A stretch of 64,000 nucleotides of DNA from Nostoc sp. DedSLP01 (GTDB lineage: Bacteria; Cyanobacteriota; Cyanobacteriia; Cyanobacteriales; Nostocaceae): positions 144,608 through 208,607 of the forward strand of contig JAVRCJ020000013.1 in NCBI GenBank assembly GCA_034530875.2. The letters run 5' to 3'. Position 1 is the first letter of the stretch. Each line of letters begins with the position of its first letter. Below, in pieces: positions 42,101 to 64,000 of this stretch. A program made the position numbers.

Positions 42101-45100
42101 AGTTGTTCTCTGGCTGTTTTCACGCCTTTGGCAAGTTGTCCGCCGAAAGTATGCATACTAGAGGGATTGCCGTAAAAGTCCGTCAGGTAAGGCAGCATTG
42201 CCTCTACAACTTGCGGGTCTACCTTGGTAGTAGCATTATTATCGAGATAGATGCAGTTCTTTTGCATTGTTTGTAATTTTGATATCAGAATAATTTAGTT
42301 AGTAGGAGTTAGGAGTTAGGAGTTCAAAGTTAAGAGTTTGCTGTGCCCCTCTGCTCCGTTGCCTTTTAACTTTTAAGCTTCAGCAATTCGTAATTTTTGA
42401 GTTGAATTTTCCATTACGAATTACGAATTATCTTATTAGGCTTCTACTCGCATTGTTCGGGGTTGACGTTTTTGTAATTGTTCAGAGTACTTCTGAGAAT
42501 AAAAGTATTCACTATCAAATATAATTGACAGTTGTATCTATGCGCTGTTATGGAAAGTTGGGGTTACGCAAGAGTGAGTGGAGAGGAGCAGCAAACAGAT
42601 AAAGGTGCGTTGCGTAAACAAATAGAACGCTTGCGTGGTTCTGGATGTTCAAAAGTATATTGGGATATTCAGTCACGGACAACCGAAGTCAGGGAAGGAC
42701 TACAACAATTAATTAATGACTTGAAAGCATCTCCAAAAGGTAAGGTAAAATCACTTCAGTTTACCCGGATTGACCGTATTGGCTCATCATCGCGGTTGTT
42801 TTATTCATTGTTGGAGGTATTGCGCTCCAAGGAAATTAAACTCATAGCCCTAGATCAAGGAGTTGACCCAGACAGTCTGGGTGGGGAATTAACAATTGAT
42901 ATGTTGCTTGCAGCTGCCAAATTTGAGGTAAGAATGGTGACAGAGCGTTTGAAAAGTGAACGTCGTCATAGGATAGACCAAGGAAAAAGCCACCGAGTTG
43001 CTCCATTGGGATATCGTATTCACAAGGATAAATATGTACGCGATGAATCACCATGCGTTTGCTTGTTGGAAGGACGAAGAGAATTAACTGTATCTGATGT
43101 GGCCAGATATATTTTTAATACTTTTTTTGATTGCGGTTCGGTTGCAGCGACTATTCGGAAACTGCATTCAGATTTTGGTATAGAAACAAAAGTTTTTGAT
43201 TGGAACAAGCCAGAAACATCTTCACGGATTGTCAGTGATGATGATTTAGATAAAATTGTATTTACGCCAAATAAAGTTAACCACCCTTTGCGTTATCCGT
43301 GGTCAGGGTTGAGATGGTCGATCGCAGGTTTGAAAGCGTTATTAGTAAATCCTGTTTACGCAGGGGGTCTACCTTTTGATACTTACGTTAAGTCAAAGGG
43401 AAAACGCAAACACTTTGACGAGTGGAAGGTAAAATGGGGAACTCATAACGATGAGGCAATAATTACCTATGACGAACACGAACGTATAAAACAGATTATC
43501 AGAGGAAATCGACATAACCGATGGGCTTCAAGAGAAGATAACGAAGTTAACCCATTTTCTAATTTAATCAAATGCGCTCATTGCGGAGGTTCAATGACGC
43601 GTCATGCAAAACGAGTAAATAAGGATGGGGAAGCTATCTATTATTTTCAGTGCCGTTTGTATAAAGCTGGCAACTGTAACAATAAAAATATGATTTCATC
43701 AAAAATATTAGACATCCAAGTAATGGATTTATTAGCACAAGAAGCCGAACGTTTAGCGAACTTGGTGGAAACAGATGAGAAACCTATTGTAGAGGAACCC
43801 CCAGAAGTTAAAACTCTCCGCGCATCGCTGAATAATCTTGAAACATTACCGCCAAGTTCAGCAATCGAACAAATCAAAAATGACCTCAAAGAACAAATTG
43901 CGATCGCGCTTGGAGCAACAAATAATGCAGCGAAACAATCCTTGATTGCTAAGGAACGAATTATACAGGCTTTTGCTAATAAAAGTTATTGGCAAGGACT
44001 TAATGCCCAAGATAAAAGAGCAATACTCAATGGTTGCGTTAAAAAAATATGCATAGACGGTAACTTTGTTACAGCCATTGAGTATCGTTACTAAATGTGG
44101 CGATCGTACTGTTACAAGGTGCGATGTGACAACTATAGCGATCCTAAATGAGAAAGTGAAATATTGCATAAAGGTTTGTTGACTGTTGAGTGTTAACCGT
44201 TTACAGTTAACACTCAACAGCCATAACAGATATTTTTCACAAGTGAAATAGGATTGCTATATGAATCTCTGAAGGAGAAAATCGCCCTACCCTATTCGCT
44301 AGAATCAAAACAAACTCGAAAAATTTTGCTATGGTAGCCATCCCCCAACAACCGCAAAAAATGACCATCGAGGAATATCTCGTATGGGAACCCCAGCAAG
44401 ACCTTCGCTACGAATACGTCAATGGCGAAGTTTTTGCGATGACAGGTGGTACAATTCCCCACAATGATATTGCACTTAATTTTTACAGAGCTTTATATCC
44501 ACATTTACGTGCTAGAGGTTGCCGAGTGAATGTGTCAGACGTGAAAGTGCAAGTTACGCCTAAAAGTCCTTACTATTACCCTGATGTTATTGTCAGCTGT
44601 GACCCTCAAGACCTCAATGCCCGTAAATTTATTCAAAACCCAAAAATAATTGCCGAAGTTCTCTCCCCTGGTACAAGCAGCAAAGATAGGGGCGAAAAAT
44701 TCATTAATTACCTGAAAATGCCTTCTTTACAAGAATATTTATTGATAGATTCAGAAACAATCTCCGTCGAACGCTACTCTCGAGGAGAGGGAAGAATGTG
44801 GCTTTACTATCCCTACACTGAGGGAGACATTATTACCCTACCTAGCATCGAATTTGAATTTGCGATCGCACTCCTGTATGAAGGGGTTGTATTGGGAAGC
44901 GAAGCGGAATAGAGTTTGAAAGCGCCAGATTCAAAAATTACTCAAAGAAAAGATTGCGATCGCATTTAGAATAACAAATAATACCTCCAAACAATTGCTA
45001 TTTTTTAAGGAAAGAATTATACAAGCTTTTTCTAATAAAAATTACTCGCAAAGACTAAATACCAAAGATAAGAGTTCGATACTCAATGGCTACATCAAAA

Positions 45101-63100: not shown

Positions 63101-64000
63101 AAGGTTTGAAACAGCTTGCCAAGTCTGTAGGCGTTCCACTCAAAAGTGTGCTGCTGACTGCTCATTTACGAGTTTTAAATCTTCTGAGCGGACACTCAGA
63201 TGTTCTCACAGGTTTAGTCACTAACGGACGACCCGAACAAACCGATGGTGAGCGAATTCTAGGATTATTCCTCAATACCTTGCCATTTCGCCAAGAATTG
63301 TCTGGGGGAACTTGGATAGATTTAGTCAAAGCAGTGTTTGCAACCGAACAAGAATTGCTGCCGCACCGCAGATATCCATTAGTGGAAATCCAGAAAAGCT
63401 TAGGTGGTCAGGCTTTATTTGAGACAACTTTTAACTTCACGCATTTTCATGTGTACGAACAGTTGCAAGAACTTAAAAACTTGCAGCTATTAGGTAAAAA
63501 GTTTTTTGAAGAAACAAATTTTACTTTTAATGCTGGCTTCAACCTGAATCCAGATTCATCTCAAATTGAACTCAGTTTGGGCTACGATGCTTGTGAGCTA
63601 TGCCCCGAACAAATCAACAGAATTAGCGATTATTACGCTAATACCTTGGCGGCAATGGCAAACGAGCCAACAGGACGTTACGAATTACACTCTTTGCTGT
63701 CTGTAGAGGAACAAAATCAGCTGTTAGTGCAGTGGAACAATACTCAAACGGATTTTCCCCAAGAGTTTTGTATTCACCAGTTATTTGAGGCACAAGTAGA
63801 GCAAACACCAGATGCGATCGCAGTAGTCTGGGAAAATGAGCATCTGACTTACGCGCAACTCAACGCCAAAGCCAACCAACTAGCACATCACTTACAAACC
63901 CTGGGTGTGAAACCAGAGGTGATGGTGGGAATTTGTGTAGAGCGATCGGTTTTGATGCTCATCGGTATTCTGGGGATATTGAAAGCTGGTGGTGCTTACG

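What a model noticed while it worked through the whole genome (the two positions that open the first line are those of the whole stretch)
42490..64000. fdxN excision element carries a whole NRPS cluster
fdxN is split at a 12-bp direct repeat (TATTCTCAGAAG at C48:41967 and C13:187097). The interrupting element, about 35 kb, holds xisF, a second serine recombinase and a complete cryptic NRPS operon: homo-amino-acid genes, ABC exporter, carbamoyltransferase, methyltransferase and four modules. The cluster would be cut out of the chromosome in heterocysts, making the product specific to vegetative cells.
Evidence so far: nifB-fdxN' ends on C48 with NRPS genes 257 bp behind it; the missing C-terminus (YSQKYSEQLQK...) stands before nifS on C13 next to xisF. 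C13, C98 and C48 are linked by 98-99% identical A-domain ends in a consistent direction, giving C-A-T, C-A-T-E, C-A-T-E, C-A-T-E-C-like order. In 28 of the 29 closest Nostoc relatives fdxN is intact and abuts nifS. The methyltransferase has no match in 40 other genera. The element survey PMC4874684 has 0 hits for NRPS, secondary, toxin, peptide; searches 21, 28 found no such case.
(Added by a program. Inside this text positions count along the whole contig: contig position 144,608 is position 1 of the stretch shown here. "Call 12" and the like, gene names such as g00115 and contig names such as C1 are that model's own, and its searches are not shown. The text may have been shortened before it was handed on; [...] marks where a part breaks off. 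The agent that wrote the report below was given it as the finding of a first reader that could run no searches.)

Follow-up and report, generated by a model that had tools for sequence, protein, structure and literature searches.

The report
Nitrogen-fixation excision element carrying peptide factory
A piece of DNA that this kind of cyanobacterium cuts out of a nitrogen-fixation gene when it builds its nitrogen-fixing cells carries a complete gene set for an unknown small peptide, and the same piece in related species carries quite different gene sets, so it behaves as an exchangeable cargo slot.

Summary
Largely real, with corrections. fdxN is split at the known TATTC site by a canonical XisF element of about 34.1 kb, with intact att arms. 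The contig order C13-C98-C48 is backed by a two-copy repeat at about 1.9x depth and by one-contig orthologues. The cargo is an intact NRPS operon: C-A-T-C-A-T-C-A-T-E / C-A-T-E-C* (two epimerases, not three). The same cluster lies outside any element in two other Nostoc. The methyltransferase is not genus-restricted. New here: 3 of 24 other single-contig fdxN elements, and 1 of 8 split ones, carry other NRPS/PKS clusters; others carry CRISPR, EPS, eCIS or gas-vesicle genes. Enrichment for NRPS is not robust. The carbamoyltransferase-methyltransferase pair also sits in a cluster collinear with banyasin A, so it probably adds an N-methylcarbamoyl group, the argifin-type chitinase-inhibitor warhead. 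Excision was not seen in the read contigs. A vegetative-only product is unproven, because excised elements persist as circles with the operon whole. Ten paper searches found no report of NRPS cargo in these elements. The scan's earlier notes hold no such element; one note on a fused enzyme agrees on the methylcarbamoyl role.

The parts
41059..42267 (-). nifS, the chromosomal flank downstream of the element
   Evidence: Pfam Aminotran_5; 86-93% to nifS beside xisF or intact fdxN in relatives
42436..42501 (-). 3' end of fdxN (21 codons plus stop); the 5' part is at C48:41676-41978
   Evidence: Join in a script gives 118 aa; the intact homologue has a 118-aa frame
42490..42519 (-). attR: 12-bp repeat beginning TATTC, plus the conserved element arm TTTGATAG (42512-42519). 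attL is at C48:41967, with the arm CTATCAAA
   Evidence: Arms recur across the att sites aligned; inverted arms centre on TC; TATTC at fdxN nt 289 in the two published rows shown
42532..44094 (+). xisF, large serine recombinase, intact
   Evidence: NF041201 525 bits, cut-off 375; resolvase, recombinase and zinc-ribbon domains; 80-93% orthologues in 34 of 388 other family genomes
44331..44912 (+). Uma2-family gene, common in these elements
   Evidence: cluster present in 11 of the 25 fetched stretches
44931..45149 (+). Decayed second copy of the xisF 3' end
   Evidence: 79.6% over 221 bp
45571..48729 (-). Conserved block: zinc-ribbon gene (45571-45951), second XisF-family recombinase (45974-47515), 297-aa unknown ORF (47836-48729)
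   Evidence: NF041201 519 bits; recombinase and ORF each in 9 of the 25 fetched stretches; 84% DNA identity to G059 over 3.8 kb
50345..54412 (+). hphB-, hphCD-, hphA-like chain-elongation genes (LeuB, LeuD-LeuC fusion, LeuA homologues); the hph names are recalled
   Evidence: hphB-CD 92.6% DNA identity to the copy beside the anabaenopeptin-type cluster on C11
54533..56308 (+). ABC exporter
   Evidence: 92% to the orthologue in L037
56406..58148 (+). NodU/CmcH-type carbamoyltransferase
   Evidence: 88% to the enzyme of the banyasin-like cluster
58154..59011 (+). PrmC/AerE-like N-methyltransferase (NPPF motif), partner of the carbamoyltransferase
   Evidence: Best PDB hits 7RC2-7RC5, AerE amide N-methyltransferase, E about 2e-8; found in 22 of 74 carbamoyltransferase loci
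58993..64000 (+). NRPS1 start: starter C - A(Thr) - T - dehydrating-type C (62380-63800) - start of A2. Continues on C98 (A2-T-C-A3 start) and C48 (A3-T-E; then NRPS2 C-A(Tyr)-T-E-C*, C48:42253-48303)
63769..64000 (+). Arm of the two-copy A-domain repeat that broke the assembly

Best explanation
A canonical XisF fdxN excision element (about 34.1 kb) whose interior is an exchangeable cargo slot, here filled by a mobile, intact four-module NRPS operon. SHOWN: split gene, intact xisF, conserved att arms, contig order, open frames, and orthologous clusters at other chromosomal sites. INFERRED (about 0.9): late in heterocyst development XisF, helped by XisH/XisI from elsewhere in the genome, recombines attL and attR at the TC of TATTC. 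This restores nifB-fdxN-nifS-nifU and releases the whole operon as a circle. INFERRED (about 0.75): the element is an old resident inherited mostly vertically; cassettes of the accessory genome land in it and are replaced, and the position is tolerated rather than selected. INFERRED product: a linear, N-acylated tetrapeptide released by a terminal C-like domain. Likely order: Thr dehydrated to dehydrobutyrine (0.7); a neutral chain-extended residue such as homoPhe/homoTyr (0.5); an epimerised basic residue, probably Arg (0.5); D-Tyr (0.75). The carbamoyltransferase plus methyltransferase add an N-methylcarbamoyl group (0.7), most likely on the Arg guanidine as in banyasin A and argifin (0.45), which would make it a candidate chitinase inhibitor.
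For: Element. Six of 30 attR sites read TAGTC instead of TATTC, which fits a crossover at TC, the centre of the inverted arms. Order. Cluster is alive: differences from the orthologue fall mostly on third codon positions (16/8/40, 21/13/79, 24/6/38). Cluster is mobile: beside transposase-like genes in L037's genome, with intact fdxN and no xisF there or in L038's. Cargo slot: DNA similarity to G059 stops about 90 bp inside attL and about 0.5 kb past the 297-aa ORF. Cargo in the 24 elements includes type III CRISPR, EPS, eCIS, gas vesicle, lanthipeptide and NRPS/PKS genes. xisF and nifS trees share most genus-level groups. Product: the C after module 1 is closest to McyA C (564 bits) and AmbE. 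A2 and A3 are sister to the first A domain of the banyasin-like cluster (98/93). That cluster, FAAL-ACAD-ACP / KS-AT-ACP-AMT-MT-C-A-T-C-A-MT-T / C-A-T-C-A-T-TE + CT + MT, matches Amoa-Arg(methylcarbamoyl)-NMePhe-Asp-Ala of banyasin A (PMC4362330). E-C* ends unrelated TE-less lines in 25 of 389 family genomes.
Against: No excised junction was listed in the read contigs (such contigs drop rare forms, and 94 loose ends were not shown). xisH/xisI are not inside this element. Substrate calls rest on recalled specificity codes; a paper search for the recalled homoTyr code found nothing. A2 and A3 match no recalled code exactly, and A3 lacks the acidic residue at position 278 that the banyasin-like Arg domain has. 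G128 has the same A2 code but no hphCD hit, which weakens the homo-residue. CT+MT pairs in Cellvibrio-type and archaeal loci lack an Arg-Phe line, so the acceptor varies. The synthesised banyasin A isomers did not match the natural product (PMC4362330 abstract), so its structure is not settled. G000's xisF groups away from its genus mates (88/90), a hint against plain vertical descent.
Confidence: 0.75

Rival explanations
1. The position is adaptive. Excision switches the cargo off in heterocysts (the circle is silenced or lost), so the element is a developmental control that confines the peptide, and other cargo, to vegetative cells.
For: [quoted passage not shown] Multi-module NRPS in 3 of 24 elements against 0.74 expected from G000's background (P about 0.04). 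Much cargo looks dispensable for heterocysts: gas vesicles, CRISPR, eCIS.
Against: Circles persist and the operon stays whole on the circle. Orthologous clusters work outside elements. Two of the 3 cases are close kin sharing a spumigin-type cluster; with two independent cases P is about 0.17 (Poisson, by hand). Many genes are shut off in heterocysts without excision (general knowledge).
Confidence: 0.15
2. The element arrived recently by XisF-driven integration into an intact fdxN, bringing the cluster with it: a mobile delivery vehicle for biosynthetic clusters.
For: 124 of 127 genus genomes lack the close XisF. G000's xisF falls with G531 and genus g183, the group holding all NRPS-bearing elements found, while its nifS falls with its genus mates (98/97).
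Against: The AU test does not reject one clade of G000, G059 and G123 for xisF (p 0.063). No other element examined carries this cluster. The cluster's closest copies lie outside elements. hphB-CD is closest to G000's own C11 copy, which points to time spent in this genome.
Confidence: 0.2
3. The element is stuck: cargo insertion or loss of xisH/xisI left it unable to excise, and the strain copes with a truncated FdxN or does not fix nitrogen through this cluster.
For: No joint at attL among the joints listed for 4 runs; no xisHI inside.
Against: xisF is intact and both att arms match the consensus. There are 11 xisH and 17 xisI hits in the genome, one pair about 1 kb upstream of nifB. Most of the 24 elements show no xisHI either. 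nifS, nifU, nifH, nifD and nifK are open.
Confidence: 0.06
4. Assembly artefact: the NRPS pieces on C13, C98 and C48 are not one cluster between the fdxN halves.
For: Two gaps are not bridged by any single record.
Against: The repeat has 2 entries and 2 exits and about twofold depth. The pieces tile the one-contig orthologue at 92-94% with gaps of 178 and 183 bp. Both outer ends are anchored in fdxN halves on continuous contigs.
Confidence: 0.02

Closest known systems
fdxN element of Nostoc (Anabaena) PCC 7120 and the three fdxN elements of Hilton et al. 2016 (PMC4874684)
   Same: Same site (TATTC near nt 289; here nt 292), serine recombinase XisF at the nifS end facing inward, 34 kb against the published 38-59 kb.
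   Different: Cargo is a complete NRPS operon; xisH/xisI lie outside; a second XisF-family recombinase is present. The survey notes variable gene content but names no biosynthetic cluster in the sections and supplements I searched.
nifD element carrying cyp110 (PMC1079853)
   Same: A metabolic gene on an excised element, with protein seen in vegetative cells and not in heterocysts.
   Different: A single conserved gene on a XisA element, against a 27-kb exchangeable pathway here.
Banyasin A (Nostoc) and argifin: N-methylcarbamoyl-arginine peptides (PMC4362330)
   Same: The CT+MT pair is 88% and 82% identical to that of a cluster collinear with banyasin A; A2/A3 are sister to its first A domain.
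   Different: No PKS, no N-methyl-Phe-Asp modules, no thioesterase; two epimerases and a dehydrating-type C. A different, probably linear scaffold. No paper found links any genes to banyasin A.
McyA / AmbE dehydrating condensation domains (PDB 8JBR, 7R9X)
   Same: The C domain after the Thr module is closest to these (564 and 220 bits).
   Different: No N-methyltransferase domain in the module; activity not tested.
Anabaenopeptin-type clusters with hph genes; radiosumin-type clusters (assignments recalled)
   Same: hph genes shared with the C11 cluster; starter C 61-69% and terminal C* 63-69% identical to two-module clusters with aminodeoxychorismate-type genes.
   Different: No A-T-C-A(Lys)-T-E starter, no TE; four modules with other codes. 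The radiosumin paper was not held.

Membership tests
XisF fdxN excision element | Interrupts fdxN at TATTC near nt 289 | tested here: met
   Repeat starts at fdxN nt 292, one extra codon upstream
XisF fdxN excision element | Intact XisF at the nifS end, opposite to fdxN | tested here: met
   NF041201 above cut-off; 520-aa open frame
XisF fdxN excision element | Conserved att arms; excision restores the frame | tested here: met
   Arms match the aligned att sites of other elements; 118-aa join
XisF fdxN excision element | xisH/xisI available (inside the element in PCC 7120) | tested here: inconclusive
   Not inside; a pair upstream of nifB and others elsewhere. Whether they act in trans is untested; most surveyed elements also show none
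XisF fdxN excision element | Excised in heterocysts only | not testable with these tools
   Only assembled contigs were available; no joint listed
Banyasin/argifin-type N-methylcarbamoyl-Arg peptide cluster | Carbamoyltransferase plus amide N-methyltransferase pair | tested here: met
   88% and 82% to the banyasin-like cluster; AerE is the best PDB hit
Banyasin/argifin-type N-methylcarbamoyl-Arg peptide cluster | Arg-activating module | tested here: inconclusive
   A2/A3 lie in the basic-residue clade, but their codes are unmatched
Banyasin/argifin-type N-methylcarbamoyl-Arg peptide cluster | Arg-NMePhe-Asp order and TE macrocyclisation | tested here: not met
   No N-MT, Asp module or TE; not a banyasin cluster
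Anabaenopeptin cluster | A-T-C-A(Lys)-T-E starter and TE | tested here: not met
   Starts with C, ends with C*; the genome's cluster of that type is on C11
Dehydrating (McyA/AmbE-type) C domain | Follows a Ser/Thr module and is closest to McyA C / AmbE | tested here: met
   (by similarity; activity not tested)

The most novel reading that the evidence does not exclude
fdxN elements are developmental cassettes. Nostocaceae repeatedly park whole secondary-metabolite and defence pathways in them so that programmed excision silences these in heterocysts. In this root-associated Nostoc the cassette makes an argifin-like chitinase inhibitor, whose output would fall as heterocyst frequency rises in symbiosis.
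Probability: 0.15. Interest if true: 0.88.

Novelty: new variant of a known kind. Interest (0 to 1): 0.62.

Why it matters
What nif excision elements are for is an old open question; surveys call their content variable and without known function. Finding at least five different complete NRPS/PKS clusters inside fdxN elements gives cargo with measurable products, so one can test directly whether excision changes expression by cell type. Separately, the carbamoyltransferase-methyltransferase pair points to the first candidate genes for N-methylcarbamoyl-arginine, the group that binds chitinases in argifin. It also gives a candidate cluster for banyasin A, whose structure is unsettled, and a new peptide scaffold that may bear the same group.

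Tried and rejected
Reads: no RNA holder listed. Contigs of 4 DNA runs (one study, two flagged as a possible source) showed no excision joint; this is not taken as evidence against excision. The 12-bp repeat as evidence on its own: rejected. A first null for NRPS enrichment (expected 0.39, P 0.007) was discarded because its windows ran off contig ends; one search replaces it. G752 was dropped from the 25 fetched elements: its xisF and fdxN 5' part do not face each other as in the rest. For G674, G675, G676, G750 and G756 up to about 3 kb at the xisF end was not fetched. The Iningainema MAG (L046) has the cluster, a split fdxN and XisF at 80%, but on separate short contigs, and a different gene follows its fdxN'; no link could be shown. 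The promoter scan upstream of hphB was at chance level (7 against 6.3). The stable fold between the NRPS stop and attL (z -3.4) is mostly a dispersed repeat with 28 genome hits. The homoTyr domains of the anabaenopeptin-type clusters were missed by my extraction, so they are not in the tree. The radiosumin paper was not held. Paper searches returned nothing; others listed no report of biosynthetic cargo in an fdxN element or of genes for methylcarbamoyl-arginine. Subscription papers are not covered, and I searched supplements only for PMC4874684.
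Full report
OBSERVATION. The window is C13:144608-208607 of a 113-contig genome. The 12-mer occurs at window 42490-42501 (-) and C48:41967 (+), and twice more elsewhere; alone it is no better than chance. Context makes the case. On C48, nifB is followed by a ferredoxin frame that ends four codons after the repeat; in the window the repeat opens 21 codons that lie before nifS. Joined in a script they give 118 aa, the frame length of intact fdxN in G143. 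The repeat starts at fdxN nt 292; the two published rows shown are at TATTC, nt 289 (PMC4874684, supplement search). The gene at 42532-44094 scores 525 bits on NCBIfam XisF, cut-off 375.

ATT SITES. Across the att sites aligned from 30 XisF loci, the element-side arms TTTGATAG (attR) and CTATCAAA (attL) recur, and G000 matches both. The identical core is only 5 bp in four genomes, so 12 bp here is incidental. The two arms are an inverted pair whose 28-bp spacer centres on TC. Six of 30 attR sites read TAGTC, which restores the gene only if the crossover is at TC. This is inference.

ASSEMBLY. The C13 and C98 ends share 164 bp (98.2%); the C98 and C48 starts share about 105 bp; apart from one 62-bp hit at 90%, no other contig carries these arms. 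In 3 of 4 runs a 447-bp unitig runs over the C48 end at 347 against 183, 755 against 428-455, and 830 against 460 (one study, possibly the source, so not independent). A two-copy repeat with two entries and two exits allows only C13-C98-C48. The pieces tile the one-contig orthologue at 92-94% with gaps of 178 and 183 bp, giving about 34.1 kb. Element and flank have the same depth, and one contig spans attL with no joint listed; such contigs drop rare forms.

THE CLUSTER. hphB-hphCD-hphA-ABC-CT-MT-NRPS1-NRPS2, all reading from the xisF side toward fdxN'. NRPS1 is C-A-T-C-A-T-C-A-T-E (3,720 aa in the orthologue); NRPS2 is C-A-T-E-C*. The cluster recurs in Nostoc sp. UHCC 0252 (L037), a Nostoc MAG (L038) and an Iningainema MAG (L046) at 85-95% per domain for modules 1-3. 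In the first two, fdxN is intact beside nifS and there is no xisF; in L037's genome transposase-like genes flank it. In those relatives module 4 is A(Ser-type)-T-C* without E. G000 has swapped in A(Tyr-type)-T-E-C*: DNA identity is 88% over the C domain, then breaks, and the best match of E (83%) and C* (75%) is an unrelated cluster in G462. Differences from the orthologue fall mainly on third codon positions.

THE PRODUCT (inference; residue names for codes are recalled). Codes: DFWNIGMVHK (Thr), DGAITGCVVK, DAAIFGVVDK, DASTIAAVCK (Tyr). The C after module 1 is closest to McyA C (564 bits) and AmbE, suggesting dehydrobutyrine. The starter C is 61-69% identical to starters of two-module clusters that I take from memory to be radiosumin-type (paper not held). 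C* ends TE-less lines in 25 of 389 family genomes (4 candidates scored per genome), so it is probably the release domain. A2 and A3 are a recent duplication (77%) and sister to the first A domain of another cluster (98/93), among Lys/Arg-type domains. That cluster, read in full for L039's genome and seen in part in L040-L045, is FAAL-ACAD-ACP / KS-AT-ACP-aminotransferase-MT-C-A-T-C-A-MT-T / C-A-T-C-A-T-TE, then CT, MT and ABC, with Arg-like, Phe, Asp-like and Ala codes. Banyasin A is cyclo(3-amino-2-methyl-5E-octenoate, N-methylcarbamoyl-Arg, NMe-Phe, Asp, Ala), and its modified Arg is the chitinase-binding group of argifin (PMC4362330, passages and Results section). The match is part for part, leaving CT+MT to add the methylcarbamoyl group. 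G000's CT and MT are 88% and 82% identical to these. The MT's best solved relative is AerE, an amide N-methyltransferase (PMC9060474 passages). An MT homologue lies in 22 of 74 CT loci, 19 of the 22 with an A domain in the fetched DNA. Against: unmatched A2/A3 codes; no hphCD hit in G128 despite the same A2; CT+MT pairs in other settings; and the synthetic isomers differed from natural banyasin A (abstract). A guanidine review had no 'carbamoyl' mention (PMC12371840, passages).

CARGO CENSUS. XisF at 80-93% occurs in 34 of 388 other family genomes. In 25, xisF and fdxN' share a contig; G752 was dropped, leaving 24 stretches of 14-90 kb, 986 kb in all. Three carry multi-module NRPS/PKS: G531 (FAAL-PKS-NRPS-TE), G674 (two clusters) and G682 (an anabaenopeptin-type cluster with hph genes and a spumigin-type one) (type names recalled). 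Of 8 split elements whose flanks were fetched, G679 has a spumigin-type NRPS directly behind xisF. Others carry type III CRISPR (G059, G555), EPS genes (G123), eCIS (G677), gas vesicle and chemotaxis genes (G551), lanthipeptide genes (G297, G756) or a PKS (G704). A zinc-ribbon/second recombinase/297-aa block and a decayed xisF 3' end are shared fixtures. With G000's other C domains as background, 0.74 of 24 would hold two or more C domains (P of three or more 0.036). But G674 and G682 are kin and share a cluster, and the background comes from one fragmented genome, so enrichment is not established. xisF and nifS trees share most genus-level groups; G000's xisF sits with G531 and g183 (88/90) rather than its genus mates, but the AU test gives p 0.063.

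MECHANISM AND RIVALS. Most likely XisF excises the element in heterocysts, with XisH/XisI supplied from outside it (requirement per passages), and the operon leaves whole on a circle. Excised elements persist as circles (PMC11249958, passages), so loss of product is not automatic; CYP110 on the nifD element is the one precedent found for vegetative-only cargo (PMC1079853). I rank tolerated cargo slot 0.75, recent delivery by the element 0.2 (not exclusive of the first), adaptive switch 0.15, stuck element 0.06, artefact 0.02.

PRIOR WORK. Hilton et al. list three fdxN elements and call element content dynamic (abstract, Results part 1 of 2, section 9, passages). Their two supplementary files had 0 hits for NRPS, 'peptide synth' or 'adenylation'. 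Passages of PMC8461463, PMC3542288, PMC3610870 and bioRxiv 629832 (48) name no biosynthetic cargo; PMC8461463 describes a mobile 18.4-kb insert in a nifD element. Passages of PMC13500786 and PMC9594780 did not address the C domains. Searches found no report of NRPS in an fdxN element or of banyasin genes; subscription papers and other supplements were not seen. Earlier scan notes: none on such an element; one unchecked note on a CT-MT fusion agrees.

VERDICT. A real, known kind of element with unreported cargo, part of a wider unreported pattern, plus a good lead on methylcarbamoyl-arginine biosynthesis. New variant of a known kind; interest 0.62.

Noticed in passing
L039-L045; G076:C73:23121-53483: FAAL-ACAD-PKS-NRPS cluster with CT and MT in Nostoc, Brasilonema, Rhizonema and Scytonema records, collinear with banyasin A; a candidate cluster not found in the papers searched.
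   Followed up: yes
L062, L063, L095 (myxobacterial records): NRPS lines with CT and MT; two show an N-methylated aromatic-type module before a TE module, with an Asp-like code in L063, i.e. argifin-like.
   Followed up: partly
G531:C1:5676001-5729500; G674:C1:2774601-2834600; G682:C111:173901-220400; G679:C77:6001-26000: Other complete or partial NRPS/PKS clusters inside fdxN elements.
   Followed up: partly
G677:C16:74201-114000: fdxN element carrying an eCIS locus, plus three genes shared with G674's NRPS cluster left beside attL, perhaps a trace of a lost cluster.
   Followed up: partly
G059:C1:85300-122400; G123:C105:6800-37500; G551; G751: Elements carrying type III CRISPR with an RT-Cas1 fusion, an EPS cluster, gas-vesicle plus chemotaxis genes, and a single 7,206-aa protein.
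   Followed up: partly
window 1-36636 (C13:132665-181253): The nifD gene is also split, by a 48.6-kb element with an 11-bp repeat, a xisA-like gene, a xisHI pair, hybrid histidine kinases, a chaperone-usher pair and a DEAD/HIRAN helicase.
   Followed up: partly
window 44931-45149 and 45571-48729: Decayed xisF 3' copy next to a second XisF-family recombinase block, repeated in other elements; may record a tandem integration that adds cargo.
   Followed up: partly
L175 (G553 attR): attR is interrupted just after the core, so this element may be unable to excise.
   Followed up: no
G752:C1:1920501-1944300: xisF-nifS-nifU-nifH-nifD and the fdxN 5' part do not face each other as in other elements; possibly an inversion.
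   Followed up: no
G000 C7:96398-101706: A second nifH-nifE-nifN-like set without nifDK beside it.
   Followed up: no
C48:42121-42300: A dispersed repeat (28 hits in the genome) overlaps the NRPS2 stop and forms a stable hairpin between the convergent NRPS and nifB-fdxN' units.
   Followed up: partly
window 50273-53168 and C11:210872-213771: hphB-hphCD are closer to the genome's own C11 copy (hphCD 96%) than to the orthologous cluster (89%), suggesting gene conversion.
   Followed up: partly
runs X1-X3: The best holders are labelled root metagenome, one study; heterocyst frequency is often high in plant symbiosis (general knowledge).
   Followed up: no
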